A DNA stretch of 64,000 nt from Sedimentisphaerales bacterium (GTDB taxonomy: Bacteria > Planctomycetota > Phycisphaerae > Sedimentisphaerales > Anaerobacaceae), in NCBI GenBank assembly GCA_035529895.1, contig DATKVV010000022.1, positions 1 through 64,000 on the forward strand. The letters run 5' to 3'. Below are positions 91 to 22,510 of the stretch, one piece after another. The stretch's first letter is position 1, and each line of letters begins with the position of its first letter. A model generated the notes under the pieces. That model was not told where the DNA came from, ran no database searches, and saw only the letters and a program-made list of their open reading frames with translations. The translations under genes were made by a program, and so were the position numbers.

Positions 91-888
91 TTGTGCCATA
101 ATTACGTTTCGTTGTTCCGGGTTATTCGGATAGGCTCTAAGCCGCATGCGGAGTTTTATAGGTGGCGCAGGAATGCCGATGGACGGGCGCCGTGGTGCAA
201 ACTTTGTATGCGCGCATACCGGCAGCATGAGCGGATGAGGAAAAAGGTATATGTTGAGGCGAGGCGCTGCAATACATGTAAAGAACTGAAGGGCCGCGAA
301 CACTTTTCAAAGGATATGCTCAACCGGGACGGATTGCGTAGGCAATGCAAGGCGTGTGCGTCACTAAGCCATCGTCGTTGGGCGGTTCGCCAGGCAGATA
401 ATGCTCCGACAGAAAAACAGTGTCGCAGGTGCGGTATAGTAAAGCCGCGAGAGCAATTTCGCCGCGACATGAGGCACGCCGATGGCCTGAGAAGTTATTG
501 CACAGAATGCAATCGCATACGCGGCGCCGCAGACTATGCGCTAGGGTCATTCCGCAAATCTGGCACGACTGGCGGGCCGTCCCTGGCGACGTGGGAACAG
601 GTCGGGCAGGCCGTAGAAGAAATAGCGGGATTACAGAAAATCATAAACCACGAGCGGAGCGCCTGTCTTAAAATCGTACAGGGCATCAAAACCGACCTGG
701 CGGCCAAGATAACCAAGCTGTTAATTCAACAGTCTCATCTCGAAAAGTTAATCGAGCGATTCATCAGAGGGACTCGCCGGAACGGGGAACGCATCGAGCG
801 AATATTTCCCTGTGGCAGAATAAGTTTTTATCGAGGCCGTTTGGAAATCGTCCCAAACCTTCCACATCTTCTTTATGTCGTGGGATAA
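91..888 (+). CDS. Basic multi-zinc-ribbon protein (cassette copy 1). It has at least 3 repeats of CxxC-x(5-6)-F-x-[KR]-D-x(5-7)-DGL-x(3)-CxxC, then a coiled-coil C-terminus. The start is uncertain: TTG at 91, and the N-terminus is shorter than in the paralog at 9215.
   Basis: ORF track. Repeated CxxC pairs are visible in the translation. It is 70-85% identical to the 9215..10045 product. It overlaps the downstream gene start by 14 nt, which suggests an operon. Confidence 0.5.
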   Translation: MCHNYVSLFRVIRIGSKPHAEFYRWRRNADGRAPWCKLCMRAYRQHERMRKKVYVEARRCNTCKELKGREHFSKDMLNRDGLRRQCKACASLSHRRWAVRQADNAPTEKQCRRCGIVKPREQFRRDMRHADGLRSYCTECNRIRGAADYALGSFRKSGTTGGPSLATWEQVGQAVEEIAGLQKIINHERSACLKIVQGIKTDLAAKITKLLIQQSHLEKLIERFIRGTRRNGERIERIFPCGRISFYRGRLEIVPNLPHLLYVVG

Positions 889-1690
889 AATGAGCACAGA
901 GGATATAAGCCGGAAGCAGCAGTTTTTCGACCAGCGGGCACGTAACGAGCGCCTTGCGCCGCCGCAGATTGTCCAGCCCGGCCACGTCGTCCGCCACCCT
1001 GTTTCCGGCAATGCAAAATTATTCGGGGTAATGTCGGCTGCCGACGGCGATGCTCTTTACACATGTCACGAACTCGTTATAGACGCAACAGCCTGGTCCG
1101 ACACTGGCGGCGATAAAAAACTTGTCGAGCTTAACGATACCGAGATTACCGTCCTTAATATCGCTGAATTTGACCCGGAACCTGAGTACGTCGCTCACCT
1201 GGCGTTCGGTGACGTGCTTGTCGGCGTATTTCGCGGAAAAGATGATGAGAACAATATCCGCTGGGCCGGTGTGCCGTTTCGCCGGCAGCATGGAGCGCAG
1301 GTTCGCCGGGCCTTCTGCAAGGCGGCAGCGGGTGACGCGGCCACGATTGATTGTTATCTCGATAAAGACGAGACGGGCACGGAGATTACCGTTAACTGCG
1401 ATATCATCGGCGGCTCGAAACTCAGTGAGGCTATCCCGTGCCTGGCTGATGGCACGCCGCTTGCGGTTTACAAGCTCGCGGACGGCAACTGGTACACTGA
1501 CACAGTATTTCAGACCTTCGATAAGGAAAAGGGCCTCGTAATCGAGTCCGGCAAGCTCGTAGTCAATATCGACGCGACGAAGGGTCTTGAATTTGATGAT
1601 GGTACCAAAAAACTGCAAGTACATATTAACGAGACTGAGCTGCGCTTCGACGGCGGTGAGCTTGAAACAAAAATTTCACCCTGTTCTTAA
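875..1690 (+). CDS. Tail-fibre-like structural protein (cassette copy 1).
   Basis: The C-terminal segment KLVVNIDATKGLEFDDGTKKLQVHINETELRFDGGELE resembles phage tail-fibre repeat motifs. It is about 85% identical to the paralog at 10046..10843. Genomic context is phage structural genes. Confidence 0.5.
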   Translation: MSWDKMSTEDISRKQQFFDQRARNERLAPPQIVQPGHVVRHPVSGNAKLFGVMSAADGDALYTCHELVIDATAWSDTGGDKKLVELNDTEITVLNIAEFDPEPEYVAHLAFGDVLVGVFRGKDDENNIRWAGVPFRRQHGAQVRRAFCKAAAGDAATIDCYLDKDETGTEITVNCDIIGGSKLSEAIPCLADGTPLAVYKLADGNWYTDTVFQTFDKEKGLVIESGKLVVNIDATKGLEFDDGTKKLQVHINETELRFDGGELETKISPCS

Positions 1691-1693
1691 TCT

Positions 1694-2452
1694 ATGGCGA
1701 ACGAAACGATTTACGGCTGTGTTGACTGGGCGACGGGCAAAATCAAGTTTGCACAGGACGCTTGTTATTACTACGGTTGTATAATATGGGAGGGCGTGCA
1801 TGCCGGGCAAGTCGCAGTTACTATTGATATGCCGAATTGCGACGATACTTATTATGGCTGCGTGAACTGGGCAACGGGCAAGTTTCAAGTTGTTGTGCCG
1901 GATAATTGCTGTGAATATCCTCCCTGTGAATATTGCGTGGATACGCCAAGCCAGGTAACTATCACATTTACCGGGTTAACCGAGTGCGAATGTCTGGTTG
2001 AGATGTATGGTTCTGCTAAATTTGTTGGTACAGCAGCCGCGATTAACGGCAATTCGTATGTATTGCCTGCCCGCCCGGATTTACCGTGTCTGTGGAAAAA
2101 GAAATTCACCGGTAATTTTGGTACTTGGAAATGTTATTATTTTACTGAATGTCAGACTTTCGACGACGAAGTGCCATTAACTTTCTTGGATATAGGTGTT
2201 AGGCGCTGCGTAGGCGAGGAGGGAGACGGTTTGCATATCGTGGCCAGGGTGGGAACCGGCTTCGACTTTTGCTGGGGTCCTTCCGTTGGACAAGTTGTAT
2301 ATTTCTATTCAACCAGCGAAGGTGGTTGTTTAGAAGCCGAGATTACAGGATGTGTCGGCGCTGTCGATTTGCCCAATCAAACAGGTTGTGATATTCCGGT
2401 AATTGGTGGCTACTTAATAAGTGGGACTGCTACGATTGTTGAAGGTGGTTGA
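1694..2452 (+). CDS. Cys-rich putative receptor-binding / fibre-tip protein (copy 1). The N-terminal roughly 85 aa are conserved and contain a YGCV[DN]WATGK internal repeat. The C-terminal half is unrelated to the paralog.
   Basis: ORF track. Alignment by eye to the 10850..11599 product shows about 75% identity over the first ~85 aa and none over the remainder. Confidence 0.5.
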   Translation: MANETIYGCVDWATGKIKFAQDACYYYGCIIWEGVHAGQVAVTIDMPNCDDTYYGCVNWATGKFQVVVPDNCCEYPPCEYCVDTPSQVTITFTGLTECECLVEMYGSAKFVGTAAAINGNSYVLPARPDLPCLWKKKFTGNFGTWKCYYFTECQTFDDEVPLTFLDIGVRRCVGEEGDGLHIVARVGTGFDFCWGPSVGQVVYFYSTSEGGCLEAEITGCVGAVDLPNQTGCDIPVIGGYLISGTATIVEGG

Positions 2453-2889
2453 TGTCTTGCAATCAAATTATTCCGCCCAAATTTACTGCCGAACAGACTA
2501 AGGAATGCTTGCACTGCAAAATGGCAAGCGCAAAGGTCCGTTGGTGCGGCCATTTCGGAGTATGGATTCAGGAACAAGGCAAAATTATAACACCACCGGA
2601 GAAAATCGCTTATCCTTCGATGCCCCGAATGGCGGCGAACTTTATGATAGCGGCAGGCAAACATATCGCATCGGGTTTCGCAAACAGAACGCCTGCCGAG
2701 CAGGAACAATGCCGGGTGATATGCGAGGCATGTCCCCACTATGTGCCGGATTCGAGATTAGGCCCGCGCTGCCGAAAATGTGGCTGTTGGGTTTCTCTTG
2801 CAAAACGCTGGGCAACAAAGCCTTGTCCTGAAGGCAAGTGGCCGGTTAACGCGGGTTTAACAGGTGTTGCAACTGTAGTTAAAACATAA
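2449..2889 (+). CDS. Small Cys-rich protein with CxxC, CEACP and CRKCGC motifs (copy 1). It may be a metal-binding fibre-assembly or accessory protein.
   Basis: ORF track. It is about 85% identical to the 11615..12061 product. It overlaps the upstream gene by 4 nt. Confidence 0.5.
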   Translation: MMSCNQIIPPKFTAEQTKECLHCKMASAKVRWCGHFGVWIQEQGKIITPPEKIAYPSMPRMAANFMIAAGKHIASGFANRTPAEQEQCRVICEACPHYVPDSRLGPRCRKCGCWVSLAKRWATKPCPEGKWPVNAGLTGVATVVKT

Positions 2890-2900
2890 GCAAAAGGCAG

Positions 2901-2988
2901 GTATCGCACATAACGCCGAGAGAAAATTGGGCGTTTTGGCTGCGATGTTTTTATGCGCTTCACCGATTCTGTTAAGATAGGCAGGATT
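2901..2988. repeat. Conserved ~88-bp non-coding box directly downstream of cassette copy 1. It contains a short hairpin aacgcc-N12-ggcgtt followed by a T-rich tract.
   Basis: Near-identical sequence (gtatcgcaca..ttaagataggcaggatt) is found at 12092..12180, downstream of cassette copy 2. Confidence 0.6.
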
Positions 2989-3030
2989 CGCCCCTTTTTT
3001 GTGTAATTACCCAACCCCCCTATCCTGTTA

Positions 3031-3100
3031 CCGCCATCTCGTGGGAATTTCCGCCAACATCCGCGCGAAACTACATGTAATCTCACACTAAAGATGGCGG
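3031..3100. repeat. 47-bp motif ccgccaTctcgtgGgaaTTtccgccaacatc...aactaca (single copy) plus its inverted partner agatggcgg. Candidate att, end or iteron site.
   Basis: Strong match to the two tandem 47-bp units at 12214..12310. An inverted repeat ccgccatct (3031-3039) / agatggcgg (3092-3100) is visible. Confidence 0.5.
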
Positions 3101-9214: not shown

Positions 9215-10045
9215 ATGGGTTTTAACGAGATATTACAATCACATGGCGTAGTACCGAAGGTCGAGACGAAGGTCTGCGGCAAATGTCACCAGGCCAAGCC
9301 GCTCGAGGAGTTTTCTAAGAACGCAACACAATCACATGGCCGCGAAATCTACTGCAAACTCTGTAGGCGTGTATATCGACAACACCAAAAGGCCAGACAG
9401 AAGGTACATGTCAAAGAAAAGCGGTGCGGTAAATGCAGGGAAGTGAAGGGCCGCGAGCGCTTTTCAAAAGACGCGAGTACGCGAGACGGATTGCGCAGTC
9501 AATGCAAAGAGTGTGCGTCATTAAGTCACCGTCATTGGGCGGCTCACCAGGCAGTTAACGCGCCGACAGAAAAACGGTGTCGCAAATGCGGCATAGTAAA
9601 GCCGCGAGAGGAATTTCACCGGGACCCGAAACACCTCGACGGGCTGCGAAGTTATTGCATACAATGCAGGCGGTTGTTAAGTGCTGCGGATTACGCATTA
9701 CGGTCATCCAGGCAGTTCGCCGTAGCCGCCGGTCCGTCCCTGGGGACGTGGGAACAGGTCGAGCAGGCCGTAAAACAAATATCGGAATTACAGAAAATCA
9801 TAAACCACGAGCGGAGCGCCTGTCTTAAAATCGTACAGAGCGTCAAAACCGACCTGGCGGCCAAAGTAACGCGACTTCTTCTACGGCAAGTGGACCTTGA
9901 AGGACTAATCGAGCGATTCATAAAGAAGAACCGTCGAAACGGGGACCGTATCGAGCGGGTCTGTGCGCACGGGAGAATATCCTTTTTTAAGGGTCGTCTG
10001 GATGTTATACCAAACTTACCGACCCGTCTTGTTGTGGAGAGATAA
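9215..10045 (+). CDS. Basic multi-zinc-ribbon protein (cassette copy 2). It has 4 CxxC-pair repeats and a coiled-coil C-terminus.
   Basis: ORF track. Paralog of 91..888, with some stretches 100% identical at the DNA level (for example aaaatcataaaccacgagcggagcgcctgtcttaaaatcgtacag). Confidence 0.55.
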   Translation: MGFNEILQSHGVVPKVETKVCGKCHQAKPLEEFSKNATQSHGREIYCKLCRRVYRQHQKARQKVHVKEKRCGKCREVKGRERFSKDASTRDGLRSQCKECASLSHRHWAAHQAVNAPTEKRCRKCGIVKPREEFHRDPKHLDGLRSYCIQCRRLLSAADYALRSSRQFAVAAGPSLGTWEQVEQAVKQISELQKIINHERSACLKIVQSVKTDLAAKVTRLLLRQVDLEGLIERFIKKNRRNGDRIERVCAHGRISFFKGRLDVIPNLPTRLVVER

Positions 10046-10843
10046 ATGGGCAGTAAGGACATAGGCCGGAAGCAGGAGTTTTTCAACGAGCGTGCCCGCA
10101 ACGAGCGCCTTGTCGGTCCCGAAATAATCCAGCCCGGCAGGGCGGTCCGCTATCCCACTTCCGGCAACACGAAGCTGTTCGGGGTGGTAACTACCGCTGA
10201 GGGGGATGGTCTTTACATCTGCCATGAATTGGTCATAGATGCGGCGGCCTGGTCCGATACCGAAGGCGCGGTCAAATTTGTCCAGCTTAATGATACCGAG
10301 GTCACCGTCTTTAATATCGCCGAATTTGACCCTGAGTCCGAGTATGTCGCCCCGCTTGCCTTCGGCGATGTCCTGGTGGGCGTTTTTCACGGCAAAGACA
10401 ACGCGAATAATATCCGCTGGGCTGGCCTGCCTTTCCGGCGCCAGCATGGAGCGCAGATTCGGCGGGCCTTCTGCAAGGCGGCGGCCGGGGCGGCGGCAAC
10501 GATTGTCTGCTATCTCGATAAAGACGGCAGCGGCTTCGAAATTACCGTCAACTGCGACATCGTCGGCGGCTCGAAACTCAGCGAGGCTATCCCGTGTCTG
10601 GCGATTGGTACGCCGCTTGAAGTTTACAAATTGGCGGATGGTAATTGGTACACGCCTACTAAATTCCAGACCTTTGACAAAGAAAAGGGCCTGGTCATCG
10701 AGTCCGGTAAGCTCATCGTCAACATCGACGATACCAAGGGCCTTGAATTTGACGCGGGCGACCATAAACTTGCGGTGAATATCAATACTACGGAATTGCA
10801 GTTCGATAGCGGCGAAATTGAAACTAAACTTGACGCCTGTTGA
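10046..10843 (+). CDS. Tail-fibre-like structural protein (cassette copy 2).
   Basis: Paralog of 875..1690. The start abuts the upstream stop. Confidence 0.5.
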   Translation: MGSKDIGRKQEFFNERARNERLVGPEIIQPGRAVRYPTSGNTKLFGVVTTAEGDGLYICHELVIDAAAWSDTEGAVKFVQLNDTEVTVFNIAEFDPESEYVAPLAFGDVLVGVFHGKDNANNIRWAGLPFRRQHGAQIRRAFCKAAAGAAATIVCYLDKDGSGFEITVNCDIVGGSKLSEAIPCLAIGTPLEVYKLADGNWYTPTKFQTFDKEKGLVIESGKLIVNIDDTKGLEFDAGDHKLAVNINTTELQFDSGEIETKLDAC

Positions 10844-10849
10844 TAGATT

Positions 10850-11599
10850 ATGGCAAACGAAACGATTTACGGCTGTGTTGAATGGGCAACGGGCAAGGTC
10901 AAATTCACACAGGATAATTGTATTTACCGGGGCTGCATAGTCCGGGGCGGGGTTCACGACGGCCAAGTGGCCGTTACTATCAATACTCCAAATTGCAATG
11001 ATACTTATTACGGCTGCGTGAACTGGGGAACGGGCAAATTCGAAGTAAGTGTGCCGGATAATTGCTGTGCAACGACTGATTGTGAATGGTGCGAAGGCGC
11101 TCCGCCGGGGTGGATAGATGTAACTTTTACGGGCCTTAGCGATTATGGCTGCGATTGTTATTACGATGTTTATGGTTATCACAGTTATAAATCTGTTGGA
11201 ATTGATATGTATAATGGCACTTGGCGCGTTCCATATTACGGGGAATGCGCTTATCACAGATTTTCTTGGGACCCAGACCCATTACCCGTATGTTCAGAAT
11301 GTCAGGAATGGTGGACCAACCAGGACTGTTCCGGTATCTATGGCTTCAAACAACATATAAATCCATCTCTGTCGGTTTATTTAATCGAAAGTGGTGTTTA
11401 TATTCAGATGCATTCGTCGAATATAGGAGTAGCAATCTTTCAGGGCACAATAAATTATACCGGGGATGATTCTTGCGGTGATACAGAAAACTCCTGCAAT
11501 AACACCTATACTTTGCCGGGTGAGTGTTGGCAATACCCGCCCGACCCCTATGTACGTACTTTTTGCACTACTGGCAGCGCAACCGTGAGCATAGCATAA
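10850..11599 (+). CDS. Cys-rich putative receptor-binding protein (copy 2) with a divergent C-terminal half.
   Basis: Shares the N-terminal MANETIYGCVEWATGK..YYGCVNWGTGKF with copy 1. The C-terminal ~165 aa are unrelated. Confidence 0.5.
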   Translation: MANETIYGCVEWATGKVKFTQDNCIYRGCIVRGGVHDGQVAVTINTPNCNDTYYGCVNWGTGKFEVSVPDNCCATTDCEWCEGAPPGWIDVTFTGLSDYGCDCYYDVYGYHSYKSVGIDMYNGTWRVPYYGECAYHRFSWDPDPLPVCSECQEWWTNQDCSGIYGFKQHINPSLSVYLIESGVYIQMHSSNIGVAIFQGTINYTGDDSCGDTENSCNNTYTLPGECWQYPPDPYVRTFCTTGSATVSIA

Positions 11600-11614
11600 A
11601 TTTAATACTCATAA

Positions 11615-12061
11615 TTGATAATTATGATATGTAATCAAATCATCCCGCCCCAATTTACGGCGGAACAGATTAAAGAATGTTCTTGCTGTAAAATGGCCAG
11701 CGCGAGGGTTCGCTGGTGCGGACATTTCGGGGTGTGGATTCAGGAGCAAGGCAAAATCATAACGCCGCCCGAGAACATCGTTTATCCTTCGATGCTCCGA
11801 ATGGCGGGTAGTTTTGCTATGGCGGCGGCCAGGCATGTCGCGTCGGGTTTTCGGAATAGAACACCTGCCGAGCAGGCACAGTGCCGGGCGATATGCGAGG
11901 CGTGTCCCTATTACGTGCGGGATTCGAAATTAGGCCCGCGATGCCGCAAGTGCGGCTGCTGCGTGTCCCTTGCCAGACGGTGGGCAACCAAGCGATGTCC
12001 TGAAGGCAAATGGCCGATTAACGCGGGTTTAACGAGCGTTGCAACTGCGGTTAAAGCATAG
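11615..12061 (+). CDS. Small Cys-rich protein (copy 2).
   Basis: Paralog of 2449..2889. Confidence 0.5.
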   Translation: MIIMICNQIIPPQFTAEQIKECSCCKMASARVRWCGHFGVWIQEQGKIITPPENIVYPSMLRMAGSFAMAAARHVASGFRNRTPAEQAQCRAICEACPYYVRDSKLGPRCRKCGCCVSLARRWATKRCPEGKWPINAGLTSVATAVKA

Positions 12062-12091
12062 ATACAAAGTGGTAAAATGTAGGTAGTCGCA

Positions 12092-12180
12092 CACAACGCC
12101 GAGAGAAAAAGAGGCGTTTTGGCTGCGATGTTTTTATGCGCTCCACTGATTCTGTTAAGATAGGCAGGATTTTCGGCCTC
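12092..12180. repeat. Conserved ~88-bp non-coding box, copy 2.
   Basis: Matches 2901..2988. Confidence 0.6.
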
Positions 12181-12213
12181 ATCAGACAATTACCTATTTT
12201 GCCCAAATCCCAT

Positions 12214-12310
12214 CCGCCAACTCGTGTGAAAATCCGCCAACATCACTGTAAACCTACACCCGTCCGCCAACTCGTGTGAAAATCCGCCAACATCACTGTG
12301 AAACTACACC
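12214..12310. repeat. Two tandem 47-bp units (period 50 bp): ccgccaactcgtgtgaaaatccgccaacatcactgt(g)aaa(c)ctacacc.
   Basis: The tandem duplication is directly visible. Each unit contains two ccgccaa half-sites and matches the single unit at 3031..3077. Confidence 0.65.
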
Positions 12311-12421
12311 TACACTACAGGGAGTTATGTGTTGTAAAAAAATTGAAGATTTTTTTGGATTTTTGTTGCACCGTCGTGCATATTGTGTCATATTGTAACA
12401 TATTGATGAGGATGTTACATT

Positions 12422-13090
12422 ATGCAGTTAATTTCAATAGAAGATTTGGCGGTTTATTTGGGTGACTCCAAACGGACTATTTACAAGTATATTGCCAGCG
12501 GCGACTGCCCGCCGTATATCCGGATAAGCGCCAAGAATATCAAATTCGACCGGACGGATGTCGATGCCTGGCTGGAATCCAAGAAAGTAATGCCGGAGCC
12601 CAATTCAGAGTGTTGGCCGCGAGGTTCTCTGCCCTGGACGCCGCGTGCAAAGCGGGTTATGAAACTGGCGGAGGACATCAGCCGCCGATACAAGTTGGAC
12701 CGCGCGGGAACGGGGGAAATGCTGCTGGGTATCGTGGAAGTCAAAGACTGTCTCGGCGCAGGCATACTCAGAAACTTCGGCGTTGACCATCCAAAGGTCC
12801 GTGAGCTGTATGAACGGTTGTACGAGGAAACGAAGGCGGAAGTCAAAAACAAAGCGTCGGGCGAGAAGTCAAATCTTGCGAACGATGCACAAAAGGCAAT
12901 TCGATGTGCCCGTGAGCAAGCCGTACGGTGGGGCCACGAGTACGTTGGAGCAGAACACCTGCTGGTCGGTATCCTGCTTGCCGGTGAGGGACTGGGCCAC
13001 AGGATCTTGACCGAGCTTGGCATCACTCTCGATAAAGTGCGCGCGGAAACCGCAAAGCTGATTGTTTGCAGGCCCGGGCAGAAACAATAA
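12422..13090 (+). CDS. Fusion of an excisionase/AlpA-type helix-turn-helix DNA-binding domain to a Clp N-terminal (Clp_N) repeat domain.
   Basis: The N-terminal ~55 aa (DLAVYLGDSKRTIYKYIASGDCPPYIRISAKNIKFDRTDVDAWL) match the HTH_17/Xis pattern. The remainder has two ClpA/ClpC N-domain-like repeats (AKRVMKLAEDISRRY..GTGEMLLGIV and AQKAIRCAREQAVRWGHEYVGAEHLLVGILL). SD gaggatg. Confidence 0.55.
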   Translation: MQLISIEDLAVYLGDSKRTIYKYIASGDCPPYIRISAKNIKFDRTDVDAWLESKKVMPEPNSECWPRGSLPWTPRAKRVMKLAEDISRRYKLDRAGTGEMLLGIVEVKDCLGAGILRNFGVDHPKVRELYERLYEETKAEVKNKASGEKSNLANDAQKAIRCAREQAVRWGHEYVGAEHLLVGILLAGEGLGHRILTELGITLDKVRAETAKLIVCRPGQKQ

Positions 13091-13155: not shown

Positions 13156-13395
13156 ATGATTGGTGCTACATGCGCAAACACAGCAGGAGGGCTTGTAATT
13201 GTGCTGGTGGGCTTCGCGGCCTACGTATTCATAATTGCACTGGTTATTATCTGCCTGATCCGGGCCTCGAGATACTTTATGACAGCAGGCAAGGAACAAA
13301 AGCTGACGCGAATAGAACTGGGCAAGCTTGCTGAAGAGGTTCATCAATTGCGTCAGGATCTGAAAGGCGGCAGGGAAGATGATTCTTGCTCCTAA
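13156..13395 (+). CDS. Small membrane protein (79 aa): one TM helix followed by a charged amphipathic helix.
   Basis: Strong SD aaggaaagga. Paralog of the next ORF. Confidence 0.45.
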   Translation: MIGATCANTAGGLVIVLVGFAAYVFIIALVIICLIRASRYFMTAGKEQKLTRIELGKLAEEVHQLRQDLKGGREDDSCS

Positions 13396-13447: not shown

Positions 13448-13684
13448 ATGACAAGCGCGATTTTGATCCTTCGGACTTCCGGCACAACGGCAACGCTGGG
13501 CCTTCTTTTCGTTTTGGTCGTTGTGCTCCTTCTGCTTGTGGTATTTGTCATATATCTATCCCGAATCGGCAGGCAAAGGGAGAAATTTCGCCAGGAACTG
13601 GACAAGCTCGCCGATGAGCTGGAGCAGGTTCGAAAGCAGGCCGAGGGGCGCAAAAAAGACGAGCCTCCGCCTAAATCAGAGTGA
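13448..13684 (+). CDS. Small membrane protein (78 aa), paralog of 13156..13395.
   Basis: SD aaaggggg. Same TM plus ELxKLAxE(L/V)xQ(L/V)R architecture. Confidence 0.45.
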   Translation: MTSAILILRTSGTTATLGLLFVLVVVLLLLVVFVIYLSRIGRQREKFRQELDKLADELEQVRKQAEGRKKDEPPPKSE

Positions 13685-14554
13685 TGTTTTTTGCGCGGTA
13701 ACAATTCGGTCGTTGTTGTGGAAGTCCTTTTCAATTCTGACCTCACCAAAACAGTTTGTCTGTTCGAGCAGTTCCTTTATTGCCTGGCCCTGGGCATAGC
13801 CGATTTCGAGCATCAGTGCCGCGTCGGGTTTTAAGAATCGGTCAAGCTTCTCGAAAATTCTGCGGCAAATATCGAGGCCGTCTTCTCCCGCAAAAAGAGC
13901 AAGCTTAGGCTCGAAGTCTTTTACGTTTTTGTCGAGCTTTTCAAACTCGGCGGCGCTTACGTAAGGGGGGTTACAAACGACAAGATCGAATTTGCCGGCA
14001 TCGAGCTGCGGCACAACCGGGTCGAACAAATCGCCGCACAAGAGAGTGATTCGGTCTTTGAGCTGATGCTTTTCGACGTTTTGGGCGGCGATATTAAGGG
14101 CGGCGTCGCAGATATCGGTGGCGACTATGCGGGCGTCAGAAAAGTTTTTGGCTATTGCCACGGCGATGCAGCCGCAGCCGGTACACAAGTCGCAGGCAAA
14201 TTGGGCGCCCGTTCGAGTTCGCAGAAACTCTACCGCCCGCTCCACCAGCAGCTCCGTTTCCGGACGGGGAATCATACAATCAGGGGCAACCTTGAGCTCG
14301 AGGGAATAGAATTCGGTTCGGCCCGTCAGATATGCCACCGGCTCATTGTGCGCGGCCCGTTTGACCAAATCGCGCAGTCGGCCAAGCTGTTCCTCGGCGA
14401 CCGGCCTGTCGAATTGGGTGTATAACTCAATCCGCTTTAATTCGAGAACGTGGCTAAGCAGCAGTTCGGCGCTCAGCCGGGGCGAATCGATGCCCTTTTC
14501 AGTGAAATGCCGGGTAATCCAGTTTAAGAGCTTTTGTATTGTCCAGTTTTGCAT
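13676..14554 (-). CDS. prmC: Release-factor glutamine N5-methyltransferase PrmC/HemK. The start is taken at the internal MQNW; the annotated ORF extends to 14752.
   Basis: NPPY motif (VCNPPYVSAAEFE). SAM-binding motif DLCTGCGCIAVAIA. The N-terminal HemK helical domain is present. Confidence 0.8.
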   Translation of the reverse strand: MQNWTIQKLLNWITRHFTEKGIDSPRLSAELLLSHVLELKRIELYTQFDRPVAEEQLGRLRDLVKRAAHNEPVAYLTGRTEFYSLELKVAPDCMIPRPETELLVERAVEFLRTRTGAQFACDLCTGCGCIAVAIAKNFSDARIVATDICDAALNIAAQNVEKHQLKDRITLLCGDLFDPVVPQLDAGKFDLVVCNPPYVSAAEFEKLDKNVKDFEPKLALFAGEDGLDICRRIFEKLDRFLKPDAALMLEIGYAQGQAIKELLEQTNCFGEVRIEKDFHNNDRIVTAQKTSL

Positions 14555-14779
14555 TGGCAGATTATAGCCGGGGTGAAGAGAAGTGAAAAACAAAAAGGGC
14601 CTGGAGAGGCGACGGGTATGAAATTGGGTTTGATCCGGCTTCGCCAGCCCGGCTTCGTATGGGACTTCGCCGTGGCAAGCAGGCTCCGCCGCGATAAATT
14701 GGGTTTGTTTGGGTTTGTTTTCCCGGCACGTTTTTGGCGGTTTCATTTTCATAACCCTCTGTCACATAGACGGTTAGGT

Positions 14780-17830: not shown

Positions 17831-19336
17831 TTATTTTTTCTCTGAAGCAGGCTCTTTGTCGAGCATACCCCTGAGAACAGTTCCCATCAGCGCATCGGTC
17901 ATACCTGCACCTGCACCGCCGACCATTACTTCCGGCGTAATCCTGATTTTCCCGGTCTCGACCAGTTTCATAATCTCGATAAGAGCGGCATTATTTGCGC
18001 CAATCACCTCGGAAATCTTCTTATAAGCCAGAGCCTTAGCCTCAGCGGTAACCTTAATTAATTCAGCCTCGGCCGTTGCGCCAATAATTTTTTTCAGCTT
18101 ATCCTGCTCGGCAATCTGAACGTTATACATAGCAGTTGCCAGCCGTTTTTCCTCTTCAGCCTCCTGCCTGGTCTTTGTGAGTTCCTTTTGTTTTTCCGCT
18201 GCACGCTGCTGTTCCTCGAACGTTGCCTGTTCCTGAAGGGCTATTTCACGGTCTGTCTGGGTCTTCAGAAGCAAACCCAGGCTCTTTTCGTCTCCGATAT
18301 CTCCGACACGCACAGCAAGAACGGTTACTCCGTATTTGGCGAGTTCCTCTTTGAGCATTGATGTACTTTGCGATTCCTGCTTGGAGCGGTTCTGAACATA
18401 TTCAAGCGCTTTGACCTTTTCAGCATTATTTCTAAATATTGCTCTGACTGCCGGCGTCACGAGCTTGGTCAGAACAAGTGCATCATCACCCACAGTGGCA
18501 ACCACTCGCGGCGCATCGTCGCTGTTTATCTTGTAGGTCATTCGAACGTCTACGGGAAACGTAAAGCCGTCCTTACTGCGAACAGTTATTGGCTTCATAG
18601 GCTGATACGCTTCGCCTTCACCTTGTTCTTTCTCGGCGGTGTAGCTGACCTTGACCTGCCGAATGCTGATAGGCGTCGCTTCATAAGCTTTCGTATGTAG
18701 TCTGTATTTTCCTTCTGTTAACGGCTTTTTCCATACCCCTTTCTGGCCTACCTCCACCAAGCGGTCTTCAGAGTCAACTGCTTCGCCCACGTTACTCTTA
18801 ATAACCACAACCGTGCCAACCTTAACATTTGTTATCGGCTCTGTTGTTATGGTAAACAGCTTGGTATTGATGCGGTACCTACCCGGCGAAAGTACTGAAA
18901 GCTGGGGGCCTTTGTAGCCTTTGCCTTGGGCCAGGAAATACTCTGCGTTGAGCATTTTTTCCGGGTCCTTCCATTCCGGCGCATAAATCGCGCCGGCAGG
19001 CAGGCTTTGCCCGTCCGCGGCCTGTATCAGGCCCACAAACCCGGTCTTTATCTCGGTCATCTTAATCTGGGTGACATTGTACTGCCATCTCCATTTGACA
19101 TGCCAGCCCGGCGCCAGAATCTGTGCCTGAACGCCGTTCTCTGCGTTTATCGCTAAAACCTTTCCCTCGGGAAGGCTTCCTCCGAAGAGTTTCTTCTCGA
19201 CGATCCCCACTTCATCGCCGTCAATTTTCACAATCGAGCTGGCAATTACGGCAATCAAAGCAATCAAAAACACCACAACAAGTATCAAAGTTGCCGTGAC
19301 CTTGTTTACAGGTATTCGTTCCCATCTAGCGTCCAT
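17831..19336 (-). CDS. Flotillin-like SPFH/band-7 domain protein.
   Basis: N-terminal TM segment. SPFH core. Long Ala/Glu-rich coiled-coil flotillin tail (EQQRAAEKQKELTKTRQEAEEEKRLA...). Confidence 0.7.
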   Translation of the reverse strand: MDARWERIPVNKVTATLILVVVFLIALIAVIASSIVKIDGDEVGIVEKKLFGGSLPEGKVLAINAENGVQAQILAPGWHVKWRWQYNVTQIKMTEIKTGFVGLIQAADGQSLPAGAIYAPEWKDPEKMLNAEYFLAQGKGYKGPQLSVLSPGRYRINTKLFTITTEPITNVKVGTVVVIKSNVGEAVDSEDRLVEVGQKGVWKKPLTEGKYRLHTKAYEATPISIRQVKVSYTAEKEQGEGEAYQPMKPITVRSKDGFTFPVDVRMTYKINSDDAPRVVATVGDDALVLTKLVTPAVRAIFRNNAEKVKALEYVQNRSKQESQSTSMLKEELAKYGVTVLAVRVGDIGDEKSLGLLLKTQTDREIALQEQATFEEQQRAAEKQKELTKTRQEAEEEKRLATAMYNVQIAEQDKLKKIIGATAEAELIKVTAEAKALAYKKISEVIGANNAALIEIMKLVETGKIRITPEVMVGGAGAGMTDALMGTVLRGMLDKEPASEKK

Positions 19337-19691: not shown

Positions 19692-21275
19692 CTATTCATT
19701 GACGAACGCCGTCTTGTTTTTCTCCCACCATGCTCTTGCGTGCTGGACCAGAGGCTCGGGGTTCCATGGTCCCTGACGCTGTGGAAACCCAAAATCGATG
19801 CCCGCGAGATTCTCTATCGCACGTGCTGCCGCCTCCTGATCAGACAGCGATGCAGCATTAAGACGTTCGCCAAGAAAGGGCACGTCAGTGCGGTCGCCAA
19901 GGTCTCCGATGGCCTGAAGCACCCAGATGCGTGTCTGAGCGGACTTGTGATCGGCGAGTCGTTTCAGCAGAGGAACGGCTTCGCGCACGTTGAGGTATCG
20001 TAGCGCAAGTGAAGTCTGTTCAATAACGCCACCATCTGTTTCGGTTTTGATAAGTTCGAGAAGCGGCACTTCTGCTTCCTCGATTCTCATATCGCCAAGT
20101 GCTCTGGCGGCATTTGCCCTCACATACGCATTATCGTCTTTGAGACAGGCAATGAGGAGTGGGACAGCACGTTTGTAACGCAAATAACCTATCCCTCGAA
20201 CAGCCCGCCACTTTGCATCAACATCCTTTGTTTTCTCAACAATTTCTATGAACAGACGAGCTGCCCCATAATTGTCAACTTTTAGAGGAGGGAGTCGAGA
20301 TAAACCAGGTTTCTCAACGGCTTCACGGGCCCCAACTGGGTGGAATTCTCCAACTACCTTCCAGACGGGTGGACCGCCGATTAGCCCCTGGCAGTCCTCC
20401 TTCACTATCAGCTTCTTAAGCGACTTGGGGATGACATAGATGCCGTAGGGAGTAACTCTCTTGCCCTCTGGTCCGGTCTGGTAGAAGCGACCGCGCACGA
20501 ACAGTTCAATCGCATCCTCGCAGTCAAGAGCATGGCAAAGTGCGATACCATCACAGTTCCACCCCTTGCCGTGGAACACGCCCACAGCCATATCCTTGGT
20601 AAAATCGATCTCGGGCAATCCGTCGTTCTCTCCGGCGTGGCTCTTCCACAGCTTCTTCCACTCATCGCTGGAAGTAATCCGCACGCACCGCCGTTTCTTG
20701 ATCTTGCTGTCGTCTCCTGAAAGCCTCTTGCCTACGTCGAGCGGCTTGCCCCTGAGTTCCTTTTCCTTCTCATCCAATGCAACGAGGCCTTTGTCGTCTT
20801 CGGTTAAGTACTTCTCTTTGCCAGTCCTGATCTCGAAGAAACGCCCGGAGCCTTTCCTGCCGCCAACGCGAAGTAAGACCGCGCCCTCCCCCGTCTTGGA
20901 ATCCGTGGTCTGCACGAAAGAGAGGCTCTTGTACGAGGCACCGAGAGACTTGGCCCAGAGCGTCTCTTTTGTTGTCCCGTCAACGACAACGACGTCCGAC
21001 GTCAAGGACAGGTAGCCTTCGACACCGTGTCCCACAATGCCCACGTCCACAGCAACCTTGGCACCAGAGACGGAGATCCAGCGGCCACCGCTTCTTTTGG
21101 ACGCGTTGTAGCAGAGGCAGACGCCGTCGTTTTCCGGTTGGACAAGCACCGCGTCTGACTTAAAGGGACCCTCGACAGGATCTGCCGCAATCGCGGCTAG
21201 GGCTAGCACGGCGCAACAAGCAGCGGCCAACCAAGCCATCTTCCACATCTCTTGTCTCCTTTCAGGATCGCTCAA
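19692..21275 (-). CDS. Secreted protein with C-terminal HEAT/PBS-lyase-like repeats.
   Basis: Signal peptide MWKMAWLAAACCAVLALAAIAA. Repeats of the VPLLIACLKDDNAYVRANAARALG type are present. Confidence 0.5.
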   Translation of the reverse strand: MSDPERRQEMWKMAWLAAACCAVLALAAIAADPVEGPFKSDAVLVQPENDGVCLCYNASKRSGGRWISVSGAKVAVDVGIVGHGVEGYLSLTSDVVVVDGTTKETLWAKSLGASYKSLSFVQTTDSKTGEGAVLLRVGGRKGSGRFFEIRTGKEKYLTEDDKGLVALDEKEKELRGKPLDVGKRLSGDDSKIKKRRCVRITSSDEWKKLWKSHAGENDGLPEIDFTKDMAVGVFHGKGWNCDGIALCHALDCEDAIELFVRGRFYQTGPEGKRVTPYGIYVIPKSLKKLIVKEDCQGLIGGPPVWKVVGEFHPVGAREAVEKPGLSRLPPLKVDNYGAARLFIEIVEKTKDVDAKWRAVRGIGYLRYKRAVPLLIACLKDDNAYVRANAARALGDMRIEEAEVPLLELIKTETDGGVIEQTSLALRYLNVREAVPLLKRLADHKSAQTRIWVLQAIGDLGDRTDVPFLGERLNAASLSDQEAAARAIENLAGIDFGFPQRQGPWNPEPLVQHARAWWEKNKTAFVNE

Positions 21276-21922: not shown

Positions 21923-22510
21923 TTGCCCGGCCATAATAATGTCGATAATATATTTTCCATGCCGAACTATATACGCGCCAGGTTTGAGGGAGGGTATTAT
22001 TTTTTCACGGTCGTCACATACCAACGCATAAAACTATTTGGTACGGAACTTGCTCGCCGTTGTCTGAGAGAAGCGATCGAGAAAACGCAATCACGGCGAC
22101 CATTTGAGACCATTGCGTTTTGTCTTTTGTTCGACCATTTGCATTACATCTGGAAGCTTCCCGAAGATGATACGGATTATTCAAAACGCTGGTCTTCGAT
22201 AAAAGGCCAATTCAGTAAAGAATATTTGAAATTAAGCGGTCAACGCAAACGGGTTTCACCATCACGAGCGCGCAAAGGAGAGGTTTGCATTTGGCAGCGG
22301 CGATTCTGGGAACATCAAATACGTGATGAAAATGACCTTCAGCGCCACGTTGATTATGTTCATTATAACCCGGTCAAACATGGATTCGTTCAGCACGTTG
22401 AAGAGTGGCCTTGGTCAACCTATCACAAATACGTAAAAGAAGGATTCTACGGCCGAGTGAACGATTTCGAACAAATTACAAACACGAGTACAGAGGGCTT
22501 CGGTGAATAA
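21923..22510 (+). CDS. REP-associated tyrosine transposase (RAYT; IS200/IS605-like Y1 HUH transposase).
   Basis: HuH motif HLHYIW. Catalytic-Tyr region WSTYHKY. FFTVVTYQR N-terminal beta-strand. Flanked on both sides by REP hairpins. Confidence 0.75.
   Translation: MPGHNNVDNIFSMPNYIRARFEGGYYFFTVVTYQRIKLFGTELARRCLREAIEKTQSRRPFETIAFCLLFDHLHYIWKLPEDDTDYSKRWSSIKGQFSKEYLKLSGQRKRVSPSRARKGEVCIWQRRFWEHQIRDENDLQRHVDYVHYNPVKHGFVQHVEEWPWSTYHKYVKEGFYGRVNDFEQITNTSTEGFGE

What the first reader, a model, noticed from the sequence alone, without database searches (positions are those of the whole stretch)
12330..13090. Excisionase-type HTH fused to Clp N-domain repeats, preceded by triple CATATTG direct repeats
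The fusion joins an AlpA/Xis-like HTH_17 (residues 1-55) to two Clp_N repeats (about residues 70-215). It sits at the extreme right end of the phage-like element. Clp_N domains are the adaptor-docking modules of ClpA/ClpC, so a DNA-binding protein carrying one could couple excision or regulation to Clp-dependent proteolysis, or act as a decoy. Its own promoter region contains gcatattgtgtcatattgtaacatattga (three CATATTG repeats). Those repeats are a candidate autoregulatory site.
Basis: partly seen in the sequence, partly recalled or inferred. Interest (0 to 1): 0.6.

Follow-up and report, generated by a model that had tools for sequence, protein, structure and literature searches.

The report
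Host repressor with ClpC-like sensor domain
The gene is not a phage excisionase but a conserved chromosomal regulator of Sedimentisphaerales bacteria, probably self-repressing, that joins a small DNA-binding domain to a copy of the ClpC protease's N-terminal domain; its layout resembles mycobacterial ClpC2, but it is built from a different DNA-binding domain.

Summary
ORF 12422-13090 (+) encodes 222 aa with HTH_17 (aa 4-54) and a complete two-repeat, ClpC-type N-domain (aa 73-215). Three exact CATATTG copies lie at 12379, 12389 and 12399, period 10.

The phage reading does not hold. More than 100 full-length homologues (55-78% identical) sit in a conserved chromosomal block: sigma factor, hpt, a variable insert, this gene, 1-3 small membrane proteins, and convergent prmC. 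No phage genes were seen there, and IMG/VR holds no relative. The phage-like DNA fills the variable slot and ends about 12308.

The repeats are conserved in 81 loci from several phyla. They form 3-4 phased units over a conserved promoter: -35 TTGCAT, 17 nt, -10 CATATT (the middle repeat), then 27 nt to the ATG. They accompany a 56-aa Xis/BldC-type winged helix that is usually stand-alone (62-73 aa). That protein is 79-96% identical across phyla although third codon positions have diverged.

Best model: a self-repressing regulator of an operon encoding itself and small membrane proteins. In this lineage it gained a ClpC N-domain, probably as a signal-sensing or oligomerisation module. Mycobacterial ClpC2 is the closest analogue. 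The N-domain fold and operator type differ, so it is not a ClpC2 family member. DNA binding and the sensed signal are inferred, not shown.

The parts
12330..12365 (+). A/T-rich stretch upstream of the promoter (possible UP element); conservation with homologous loci starts here
   Evidence: In the 81-locus upstream alignment, columns become conserved from about 12330 (consensus AAAAAAAT.AAAAtTTTTTtAGAATTTT). Nothing upstream of that is conserved.
12366..12371 (+). Inferred -35 hexamer TTGCAC (family consensus TTGCAT; TTGACA in Colwellia, Cellvibrionaceae and Verrucomicrobiae loci). It overlaps a degenerate fourth repeat unit at 12369-12374.
   Evidence: 72 of 81 loci have TTG[ACT][ACT]N, 16-18 nt, NAT[AT][ATC]T within 100 nt of the start; 68 have a 17-nt spacer. 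Shuffled controls gave a mean of 7.5 and a maximum of 15. The generic consensus scan did not call it, so this is an inference from conservation.
12379..12385 (+). CATATTG repeat 1, lying in the promoter spacer
   Evidence: It is among the best-conserved columns even though it lies in the spacer, which argues for a protein-binding site rather than a promoter element.
12389..12395 (+). CATATTG repeat 2. Its first six bases are the inferred -10 hexamer CATATT, preceded by TGT (extended -10 type).
   Evidence: It lies 17 nt after the -35. The -10 hexamers in the family are CATATT (27 loci), TATATT (27), TATAAT (6) and CATAAT (6). In 44 loci 27 nt separate the -10 from the ATG, as here.
12399..12405 (+). 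CATATTG repeat 3, over the inferred transcription start region
12408..12412 (+). Ribosome-binding site GAGGA, 9 nt before the ATG
   Evidence: Read directly from the sequence. It is conserved as tGAGGAt in the 81-locus alignment.
12422..13090 (+). CDS of 222 aa: winged-helix HTH_17 (aa 1-55), a low-confidence linker (aa 56-70), and a ClpC-type N-domain of two Clp_N repeats (aa 73-140 and 153-215)
13156..13395 (+). Small single-pass membrane protein 1 (79 aa; the gene caller uses a later start giving 64 aa): one TM helix followed by the conserved cytoplasmic helix RIELGKLAEEVHQLRQDL
   Evidence: A member of this small-protein family follows the HTH gene in at least 61 of 80 loci, including loci from other phyla. 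It matches no Pfam family. GenBank HUW18381.1, 'hypothetical protein'.
13448..13684 (+). Small single-pass membrane protein 2 (78 aa), a paralogue of the first; its end overlaps the 3' end of convergent prmC
   Evidence: GenBank HUW18382.1.
13676..14752 (-). prmC (release-factor glutamine methyltransferase), the conserved convergent neighbour that marks the host backbone
   Evidence: Pfam PrmC_N plus MTS. A homologue lies within 3.5 kb in 44 of 80 loci: 25 with the fused gene and 19 with the stand-alone HTH.
12209..12308 (+). Two tandem 50-bp repeats (94% identical), each holding two (A/G)TCCGCCAAC units. They belong to the phage-like element, not to the gene.
   Evidence: The same sequence type follows the first copy of the element's 2.9-kb internal duplication (196-3061 versus 9353-12244, 75-79% identical). 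It is absent upstream of homologous genes.

Best explanation
This is a chromosomal transcription factor of a Sedimentisphaerales bacterium and is probably self-repressing. Its N-terminal Xis/BldC-type winged helix is proposed to bind, as a head-to-tail multimer, the 3-4 CATATT(G) units phased 10 bp apart. Those units cover the spacer, the -10 hexamer and the start region of its own promoter, with a degenerate fourth unit over the -35. Binding there would block RNA polymerase and hold down an operon that encodes the regulator and two small single-pass membrane proteins. This winged helix, its operator and the small membrane proteins form an old, very conserved module found in several phyla. In this lineage the winged helix has gained a complete ClpC-type N-domain. 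By analogy with mycobacterial ClpC2, that domain probably makes oligomerisation and DNA binding respond to a proteostasis signal, such as phosphoarginine-marked or unfolded proteins, an adaptor, or a ClpC-directed ligand. Shown: the domains and folds, the conserved synteny, the conserved operator and promoter geometry, the purifying selection, and the absence from phage contexts. Inferred: DNA binding to the repeats, repression rather than activation, and everything about what the Clp_N domain senses.
For: Domains and folds. HTH_17 and two Clp_N stretches pass Pfam cut-offs. The ClpC N-domain aligns end to end at E 2e-27. Foldseek gives target-normalised TM 0.83-0.86 to ClpC and ClpC1 N-domains and also hits the ClpC2 C-terminal domain 8b9o. 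The HTH-only model (pLDDT 83.9) is closest to the excisionases 8c3t, 8dgl and 4j2n and to BldC-DNA complexes 6ama and 6amk (target-normalised TM 0.67-0.78).

Host gene. 491 homologues were found, and the best 120 all have HTH_17 plus Clp_N. Synteny is conserved and phage genes are absent. No relative exists in IMG/VR.

Operator. In 81 loci the consensus is GTTGCATtTTAgTGCATATTGTGtCATATTgCTaCATATTAaTGAGGAT, with 80-99% column conservation that includes the promoter spacer. The promoter geometry (-35, 17 nt, -10 as a repeat unit, 27 nt to the ATG) holds in 72 of 81 loci, against about 7.5 in shuffles. In Colwellia, Cellvibrionaceae and Verrucomicrobiae the -35 becomes canonical TTGACA while the repeat units remain, though some are degenerate there, so the repeats follow the HTH and not the host polymerase. 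Of 59 strict triple sites in 757 kb of loci, 58 lie within 90 nt upstream of the HTH start. Twelve of 21 exact operator matches in the metagenome collection sit immediately upstream of such a gene. Of the other nine, at least four are tandem satellite repeats and the rest AT-rich DNA with no HTH gene.

Selection. The HTH is 79-96% identical across phyla while third codon positions are only 36-64% identical.

Precedents. BldC, a lone MerR-like winged helix, binds 9-bp direct repeats head to tail as 2-4 protomers (PMC5859096). ClpC2 is an autorepressor with a ClpC1-N-domain-like C-terminal domain; its operator overlaps its own -35 and -10, and it is released from DNA by cyclomarin A or phosphoarginine (PMC10030653 and PMC13345244).

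Phosphoarginine pocket 2 is largely kept in the family: the E106 equivalent is E in 112 of 112 sequences, and the T81 equivalent is T or S in 92 of 112.
Against: No experiment shows DNA binding. The repeat units resemble -10 hexamers, so part of their conservation could be promoter function alone. The generic sigma-70 scan did not call this promoter. In the window protein each phosphoarginine pocket has one substitution: the E32 equivalent is G98 and the T81 equivalent is A153, so phosphoarginine sensing by this particular protein is doubtful. Whether Sedimentisphaerales have an arginine kinase was not determined. The stand-alone HTH works without any Clp_N domain in most lineages, so the added domain could be a plain oligomerisation module or could serve an unrelated partner. 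The function of the small membrane proteins is unknown.
Confidence: 0.55

Rival explanations
1. One reading: an excisionase or recombination directionality factor of the adjacent phage-like element. The Clp_N domain would tie excision to Clp proteolysis, and the repeats would be its binding site at the element's end.
For: The HTH belongs to the excisionase-type winged-helix class: TIGR01764 passes its cut-off, PHROG 66 'excisionase and transcriptional regulator' matches at 2.7e-10, and the nearest solved folds are excisionases. The gene directly abuts phage-like DNA.
Against: Homologues occupy the same chromosomal slot without phage genes or integrases in the loci inspected. IMG/VR holds no relative. 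The repeats and promoter are conserved in genomes that lack the element. The element's own terminal sequences end about 12308, before the conserved promoter begins. Strong purifying selection across phyla is unlike phage accessory genes.
Confidence: 0.03
2. The protein acts mainly on the Clp machinery. Its free ClpC N-domain would work as a sponge or competitor for adaptors, phosphoarginine substrates or ClpC-targeting natural products, as described for ClpC2, or as a ClpP-associated accessory protein like plant ClpT. The HTH would serve only to set the protein's own level.
For: The C-terminal domain is a complete ClpC-type N-domain, closer to ClpC than to ClpA or ClpB. Free Clp_N proteins with such roles exist: ClpC2 and ClpT1/ClpT2, which are hits 4y0b and 4y0c.
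Against: The HTH, not the Clp_N part, is the most constrained region; it is nearly invariant, while the Clp_N part varies much more. The operon partners are membrane proteins rather than Clp components. No clp gene was seen among the ORFs examined by profile search in the window. This rival overlaps with the best explanation and does not exclude it.
Confidence: 0.15
3. The CATATT units are only promoter elements (overlapping -10-like hexamers, or alternative promoters), and the protein regulates other targets or is not autoregulatory.
For: CATATT, TATATT and TATAAT are -10-like, and one unit sits exactly 17 nt from a -35.
Against: The unit in the spacer and the bases flanking each hexamer (TG-CATATT-GTG) are as conserved as the -10 itself. 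The strict 10-bp phasing of 3-4 units is not a promoter requirement. The motif stays with the HTH across phyla while the -35 adapts to the host. Only 1 of 59 strict sites in 757 kb lies anywhere other than upstream of this gene.
Confidence: 0.1
4. A toxin-antitoxin-like addiction module. The small hydrophobic proteins would be membrane toxins, and the HTH protein a DNA-binding, self-repressing antitoxin whose Clp_N domain governs its turnover by Clp proteases.
For: The layout fits: an autoregulated promoter, an upstream small DNA-binding protein, and downstream 60-85-aa membrane proteins, separated by a median of 19 nt.
Against: The locus appeared once per genome in a species-level scan, in fixed synteny, with extreme cross-phylum sequence conservation. 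There are 1-3 tandem paralogous small proteins. PADLOC gives no hit beyond the generic HTH. The module is absent from viral contigs. All of this is unusual for TA systems.
Confidence: 0.07

Closest known systems
Mycobacterial/actinobacterial ClpC2 (Rv2667 family; PDB 8ADA, 8AD9, 8B9O)
   Same: Both are small non-ATPase proteins whose C-terminal domain is a ClpC N-domain homologue (8b9o is a Foldseek hit; ClpC2 entries are profile hits). Both have an N-terminal domain that mediates oligomerisation and/or DNA binding. In both, conserved sites overlap the -35 and -10 of the gene's own promoter, with a very short or absent leader. ClpC2 is a proven autorepressor released from DNA by cyclomarin A or phosphoarginine.
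   Different: The ClpC2 N-domain is a four-helix-bundle dimer; here it is a beta-alpha-alpha-beta-beta-alpha winged helix of the Xis/BldC type. The ClpC2 operator is the pseudopalindrome CGTCAAC-n5-GTTGACG; here there are 3-4 direct repeats with 10-bp phasing. ClpC2 is actinobacterial; this protein is from Planctomycetota (Phycisphaerae). This gene heads an operon with small membrane proteins, and its DNA-binding half exists alone in many phyla. The resemblance looks like convergence, not orthology.
BldC (Streptomyces) and the BldC family of lone MerR-like winged-helix regulators
   Same: Both have a single roughly 55-65-aa winged helix with no coiled-coil dimerisation domain. The fold matches at target-normalised TM 0.69-0.78 to 6ama and 6amk. 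The target DNA consists of several AT-rich direct repeats on one face of the helix: 9 bp AATTxxxxC for BldC and 10 bp CATATTGxxx here.
   Different: Sequence identity is only 15-18%. BldC has a large developmental regulon, whereas this operator was found almost only at its own promoter. BldC has no Clp_N fusion, and binding is untested here.
Excisionases / recombination directionality factors (lambda Xis class, Pukovnik Xis 4j2n, GIsul2 Xis 8c3t, RdfS 8dgl) and AlpA
   Same: These are the best structural and profile matches for the HTH. Several of them also oligomerise on repeated sites and regulate their own promoter, for example RdfS.
   Different: There is no partner integrase, no att context and no mobile-element linkage. 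The protein is conserved as a core chromosomal gene under strong purifying selection.
ClpC/ClpC1 N-terminal domain (Hsp100 AAA+ unfoldases) and free Clp_N proteins (plant ClpT1/ClpT2)
   Same: The eight-helix, two-repeat fold aligns end to end. The invariant GxEHLL motif of repeat 2 contains the phosphoarginine-pocket-2 glutamate.
   Different: There are no AAA+ modules, since the protein is only 222 aa. Phosphoarginine pocket 1 is degenerate in half of the family and in the window protein. The family has its own conserved cysteines C110, C162 and C216.

Membership tests
Pfam HTH_17 / TIGR01764 excisionase-family DNA-binding domain (structural class) | Profile match above the curated cut-off and a winged-helix beta-alpha-alpha-beta-beta-alpha fold | tested here: met
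   HTH_17 scores 44.6 bits against a cut-off of 27. TIGR01764 scores 30.8 against 28.8. The model has E3-5, H6-13, H17-26, E32-34, E40-43 and H44-53, and its best PDB matches are excisionases and BldC.
Functional excisionase / recombination directionality factor | Encoded within a mobile element beside its integrase, with homologues that travel with such elements | tested here: not met
   Homologue loci L001, L004 and L007 and 80 genome loci show host synteny with no integrase or phage genes in the loci inspected. IMG/VR gave no hit.
Functional excisionase / recombination directionality factor | Binding sites lie in the att region of the element | tested here: not met
   The repeats lie in the gene's own conserved promoter, which is present in genomes lacking the element. 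The element's sequences end about 12308. Actual att sites could not be mapped because the contig ends at window position 1.
Clp_N / ClpC-type N-terminal domain | Two Clp_N repeats forming the eight-helix pseudo-dimeric domain | tested here: met
   Pfam finds two stretches. Residues 74-215 align to ClpC 7-142 at E 2e-27. The model has eight helices, and target-normalised TM is 0.83-0.86.
Hsp100/Clp AAA+ unfoldase (ClpC, ClpA, ClpB) | AAA+ ATPase modules after the N-domain | tested here: not met
   The protein ends at residue 222. NCBIfam ClpB, ClpA, ClpK and ClpG hits cover only the N-domain and fall far below cut-off.
ClpC2 family (Actinomycetota) | C-terminal domain homologous to the ClpC1 N-domain | tested here: met
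   (9p2p, 8b9o and 8ad9 are hits).
ClpC2 family (Actinomycetota) | N-terminal four-helix-bundle dimerisation domain (PDB 8ADA) | tested here: not met
   The N-domain here is a winged helix. 8ADA is not among the profile hits at E<=1, nor among the 50 best-listed fold matches of the HTH model. The ClpC2 N-domain fold is described in PMC10030653.
ClpC2 family (Actinomycetota) | Pseudopalindromic operator CGTCAAC-n5-GTTGACG overlapping the gene's own -35 and -10 | tested here: not met
   Overlap with the gene's own promoter is present by inference. The sites, however, are direct CATATT repeats and not that palindrome.
ClpC2 family (Actinomycetota) | Conserved phosphoarginine-binding pocket in the Clp_N domain | tested here: inconclusive
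   Pocket 2: E in 112 of 112 sequences, and T or S in 92 of 112, but A153 in the window protein. Pocket 1: T in 101 of 112, and E in only 53 of 112, with G98 in the window protein. Binding itself cannot be tested with these tools.
BldC family | A lone MerR-like winged helix without a coiled-coil or effector domain | tested here: inconclusive
   The fold matches BldC at TM 0.69-0.78 with 15-18% identity. The stand-alone 62-73-aa relatives fit this definition. The window protein does not, because it carries a Clp_N domain.
BldC family | Cooperative head-to-tail binding to direct repeats | not testable with these tools
   Only the substrate is seen: 3-4 phased direct repeats. An EMSA or footprint is needed.
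Classical MerR regulators | C-terminal coiled-coil dimerisation helix with an effector site, acting on promoters with 19-20-bp spacers | tested here: not met
   No coiled coil follows the HTH; a linker and the Clp_N domain do. The spacer is 17 nt in 68 of 72 loci.

The most novel reading that the evidence does not exclude
A nearly invariant winged-helix protein, its phased-repeat operator and 1-3 small single-pass membrane proteins form an undescribed regulatory circuit shared by Planctomycetota, Hydrogenedentota, Verrucomicrobiota, Acidobacteriota and some Gammaproteobacteria, possibly for envelope or proteostasis stress. In Sedimentisphaerales this circuit independently captured a ClpC N-domain as its signal input. 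That would be a convergent re-invention of the ClpC2 design. The Clp_N pockets might dock either phosphoarginine or unfolded proteins, or the acidic cytoplasmic helices (GKLAEE) of the co-encoded membrane proteins, so that the repressor would be titrated at the membrane.
Probability: 0.25. Interest if true: 0.75.

Novelty: new variant of a known kind. Interest (0 to 1): 0.55.

Why it matters
ClpC2 showed that a free ClpC N-domain can act as the ligand-sensing half of a transcriptional repressor. So far that design is described only in Actinomycetota. Finding the same logic in Planctomycetota, built on an unrelated DNA-binding domain and a different operator type, suggests the Clp N-domain is a reusable sensor module. 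That would link proteostasis signals to transcription more widely than thought.

The work also reveals an uncharacterised module under very strong constraint: a 56-aa winged helix, its operator, and small membrane proteins that have no family assignment. This module can be studied in a cultured isolate, Colwellia sp. 75C3.

There is a practical lesson too. 'Excisionase family' labels on genes next to prophage-like DNA can mislead island and prophage boundary calls.

Tried and rejected
1. RNA hairpin across the RBS and start codon (arms 12389-12401 and 12412-12424). The fold is no better than shuffles (-12 kcal/mol, z -0.35), and the left arm lies upstream of the inferred transcription start. 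Rejected.

2. Sigma-54 promoter (TTGGA-N-TTGCA). The GG-GC spacing is one base short, and the GG is absent from homologous loci. Rejected on reading the sequence.

3. The generic sigma-70 scan found nothing on the + strand here. The promoter call therefore rests on conservation.

4. The 50-bp tandem repeats (12209-12308) as part of the gene's control region. They are absent from homologues and are shared with the element's internal duplicate. Assigned to the phage-like element.

5. Search for a regulon. The window has no second site, and 1 of 59 strict sites in 757 kb of loci lies elsewhere. In the metagenome scan, 9 of 21 exact matches are not at an HTH gene, but at least four of those are period-10 satellite repeats and most of the others are AT-rich non-coding DNA. 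One (L108) lies 74-116 nt upstream of a response-regulator-like ORF and was not followed up.

6. Left end of the phage-like element, integrase and att sites. This was impossible because the contig ends at window position 1.

7. AFDB fold search for other full-length architectures. The library was unavailable.

8. Literature searches for an HTH_17 plus Clp_N fusion, and for McsB in Planctomycetes, found nothing useful.

9. PADLOC gave only the generic mad1 HTH match.
Full report
OBSERVATION. The ORF at 12422-13090 (+) starts with ATG and encodes 222 aa. Pfam finds HTH_17 at aa 4-54 (E 1.7e-11) and two Clp_N stretches (E 9.9e-18), both above their curated cut-offs. NCBIfam's excisionase-family domain TIGR01764 also passes its cut-off. 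A profile of 112 family members aligns aa 74-215 end to end with the B. subtilis ClpC N-domain (2y1q, E 2e-27). ClpC and ClpC1 score far better than ClpA or ClpB. The AlphaFold model has mean pLDDT 79.8, with 89-98 over the Clp_N part and a low-confidence linker at aa 56-70. It has the eight helices of a ClpC N-domain and superposes on ClpC and ClpC1 N-domains with target-normalised TM 0.83-0.86. An HTH-only model (pLDDT 83.9) has the beta-alpha-alpha-beta-beta-alpha winged-helix fold. Its nearest solved structures are the excisionases 8c3t, 8dgl and 4j2n and the BldC-DNA complexes 6ama and 6amk. CATATTG occurs exactly three times, at 12379, 12389 and 12399, with a 10-bp period. ATATT-N5-ATATT occurs nowhere else in the window, against 0.08 matches expected by chance.

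NOT A PHAGE GENE. The protein has 491 detectable homologues, and the best 120 all carry HTH_17 plus Clp_N. They are 201-240 aa long (one 189-aa fragment) and 55-78% identical, apart from the identical record of the window protein itself. They come from Sedimentisphaerales, Phycisphaerae and other Planctomycetota metagenome-assembled genomes. In three homologue contexts the order is: sigma-70-type factor, a 175-aa phosphoribosyltransferase (hpt), a variable insert (a weak TIR_2-domain protein and unannotated genes, or a PEP-CTERM protein, or a pectate-lyase-like protein), the HTH-Clp_N gene, three roughly 80-aa proteins, and convergent prmC. None has phage genes or an integrase. Across 80 species-level genome loci, prmC lies within 3.5 kb in 44 and hpt in 17. 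A scan of 2.9 million IMG/VR viral contigs found no relative. In the window the variable slot is filled by phage-like DNA: an S78 protease, an HK97-type capsid, and two copies of a four-gene cassette. That DNA is cut off by the contig end at window position 1. Its last recognisable sequences are a hairpin terminator and (A/G)TCCGCCAAC repeats, tandemly duplicated at 12209-12308. The same sequences occur after the internal copy of the cassette (196-3061 versus 9353-12244, 75-79% identical), so they belong to the element. Conservation with homologous promoters begins only at about 12330.

THE REPEATS ARE A CONSERVED CIS ELEMENT TIED TO THE HTH. The genome scan gave an unexpected result. Twenty-nine loci carry the fused gene. 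About 50 others carry a stand-alone 62-73-aa protein that is 69-93% identical to residues 1-59 over the matched segment. These occur in other Planctomycetota, often in the same prmC/hpt synteny. They also occur in Hydrogenedentota, Verrucomicrobiae, Acidobacteriota, Gemmatimonadales-labelled MAGs, Kangiella, Colwellia and Cellvibrionaceae. An exhaustive phmmer search of 1.84 billion representative proteins shows a sharply bounded subfamily. About 21 clusters score below 1e-10, and scores then drop to generic HTH_17. One variant has the HTH and a single Clp_N repeat (P0125). Across phyla the first 56 residues are 79-96% identical, while third codon positions are only 36-64% identical. This indicates strong purifying selection rather than recent transfer.

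Upstream of nearly all these genes lies the same sequence, with consensus GTTGCATtTTAgTGCATATTGTGtCATATTgCTaCATATTAaTGAGGAT. That is up to four 10-bp-phased CATATT-like units followed by the ribosome-binding site. In 72 of 81 loci a TTGCAT-type -35 lies 16-18 nt (17 nt in 68) before one repeat unit that reads CATATT, TATATT or TATAAT. Modally, 27 nt follow to the ATG. Shuffled controls give about 7.5 such loci. In the window these elements are: -35 TTGCAC at 12366-12371, repeat 1 in the spacer, repeat 2 as the -10 (12389-12394, preceded by TGT), and repeat 3 over the start region. The leader would be about 20 nt. In Colwellia, Cellvibrionaceae and Verrucomicrobiae the -35 is canonical TTGACA while the repeat units persist, though some are degenerate there. 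The spacer unit is as conserved as the -10 unit. Both facts argue that the units are protein-binding sites and not only promoter elements. With a strict definition (three phased hexamers, at most one mismatch each and two in total), 58 of 59 sites in 757 kb of loci lie within 90 nt upstream of the HTH start. Twelve of 21 exact matches in the metagenome collection sit immediately upstream of an HTH gene of this family. At least four of the others are period-10 satellite repeats, and most of the remainder are AT-rich non-coding DNA.

THE OPERON. One to three small proteins follow the HTH gene in at least 61 of 80 loci, at a median distance of 19 nt, including in the other phyla. Each has one TM helix, then basic residues, then a conserved cytoplasmic helix with consensus RlEvGKLAeEveqLRkel. 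The window has two such proteins (13156-13395 and 13448-13684). They match no Pfam family and are annotated as hypothetical.

MECHANISM. This section is inference, except where marked. Single winged helices of this class bind phased direct repeats head to tail. BldC does so on 9-bp AATTxxxxC repeats with 2-4 protomers (PMC5859096), and RdfS oligomerises on DNA and regulates its own promoter. A multimer sitting on units that span the spacer, the -10 and the start of a promoter with optimal 17-nt spacing would exclude RNA polymerase. I therefore propose negative autoregulation of the operon.

The closest known analogue for the Clp_N half is mycobacterial ClpC2. It is a non-ATPase protein with a ClpC1-N-domain-like C-terminal domain. 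It represses its own promoter through operators that overlap the -35 and -10. It needs higher-order oligomers for tight binding, and it is released by cyclomarin A, rufomycin or phosphoarginine binding to the Clp_N domain (PMC10030653 and PMC13345244). By analogy, the added domain here probably couples oligomerisation and DNA binding to a proteostasis signal.

The phosphoarginine-pocket residues are T7 and E32, and T81 and E106, in ClpC numbering. T7, E32 and E106 are supported by PMC12583610; T81 comes from my own recollection of the ClpC N-domain literature. In this family they are only partly kept. Pocket 2 has E in 112 of 112 sequences and T or S in 92 of 112. Pocket 1 has T in 101 of 112 but E in only 53 of 112. 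The window protein has G98 and A153 at two of these positions. Phosphoarginine is therefore one candidate signal and not a conclusion. Family-specific cysteines suggest a possible redox or metal input, which is untested: C29 in 112 of 112 (also present in the stand-alone HTHs), C110 in 110, C162 in 95 and C216 in 86.

COMPARISON AND MEMBERSHIP. The protein works like ClpC2 but is not a member of that family. The ClpC2 N-domain is a four-helix-bundle dimer, and its operator is a pseudopalindrome. Here the N-domain is a winged helix and the sites are direct repeats. The ClpC2 N-domain structure 8ADA does not appear among the profile hits or the 50 best-listed fold matches. The protein is structurally in the excisionase/AlpA/BldC class, but it fails the functional criteria for an excisionase. 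It is not an Hsp100 unfoldase, because it has no AAA+ modules. It is not a classical MerR regulator, because it lacks the coiled coil and its promoter has a 17-nt spacer.

NOVELTY AND VERDICT. Literature searches found no description of an HTH_17 plus Clp_N fusion, of this HTH subfamily, or of the small proteins. I rate it a new variant of a known kind: a ClpC2-like 'Clp N-domain repressor' assembled convergently from different parts. It sits on top of an uncharacterised, deeply conserved regulatory module. Confidence is high (about 0.8) that this is a host-encoded, autoregulated transcription factor and not a phage excisionase. Confidence is moderate to low (about 0.4) in the ClpC2-like sensing role of the Clp_N domain. 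Overall interest is 0.55.

Noticed in passing
window 12422-12598, and loci L038, L040-L089: A stand-alone 62-73-aa winged-helix protein, 69-93% identical to residues 1-59 of the window protein over the matched segment, occurs in several phyla, including Kangiella, Colwellia sp. 75C3, Verrucomicrobiae, Acidobacteriota and Hydrogenedentota. It has the same phased CATATT operator/promoter. Third codon positions are only 36-64% identical, so the identity reflects purifying selection. Neither NCBIfam nor Pfam has a dedicated family for it.
   Followed up: partly
window 13156-13395 and 13448-13684; for example L076:6200-6400 and L071:6198-6383: A family of small single-pass membrane proteins with a conserved cytoplasmic helix (RlEvGKLAeEveqLRkel) follows the HTH gene in 1-3 tandem copies in at least 61 of 80 loci across phyla. 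It has no Pfam family and is annotated as hypothetical. Its function is unknown.
   Followed up: partly
window 196-3061 versus 9353-12244: The phage-like region contains a 2.9-kb direct duplication (75-79% identical). Each copy holds a four-gene cassette: a Zn-ribbon/HNH-like protein of 265-276 aa, two unknown proteins of about 250-270 aa, and a Cys-rich 146-148-aa protein matching phrog_13558. Each copy ends in a hairpin terminator and (A/G)TCCGCCAAC repeats. The two copies flank the protease and capsid genes.
   Followed up: partly
window 12209-12308: Two tandem 50-bp repeats (94% identical) lie at the right end of the phage-like element. A Logan contig of the same organism (L092) begins inside them, at window position 12270. 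That suggests an assembly break or an insertion polymorphism at this point.
   Followed up: partly
protein P0125 (from the representative search; not in the window): A 143-aa relative has the same HTH fused to only one Clp_N repeat. It may be an intermediate or a degenerate form of the fusion.
   Followed up: partly
window 12506-12508, 12749-12751, 12905-12907 and 13067-13069 (codons for C29, C110, C162 and C216): Four cysteines are conserved in the fused family (112, 110, 95 and 86 of 112 sequences). The B. subtilis ClpC N-domain used for comparison has no cysteine at all. C29, in the motif GDCPPY, is also present in nearly all stand-alone HTHs. This may be a redox or metal switch.
   Followed up: no
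L108:5712-5738 (- strand): One exact operator-like match, GCATATTGTATCATATTGGTACATATT, lies 74-116 nt upstream of a 436-450-aa response-regulator-like ORF instead of an HTH gene. It could be chance or a second target.
   Followed up: no
window 21923-22510: An ORF with a weak IS200-type Y1 transposase match lies about 9 kb downstream. A 501-aa Band_7/SPFH protein (17831-19336) and a HEAT-repeat protein (19692-21275) lie between it and prmC.
   Followed up: no
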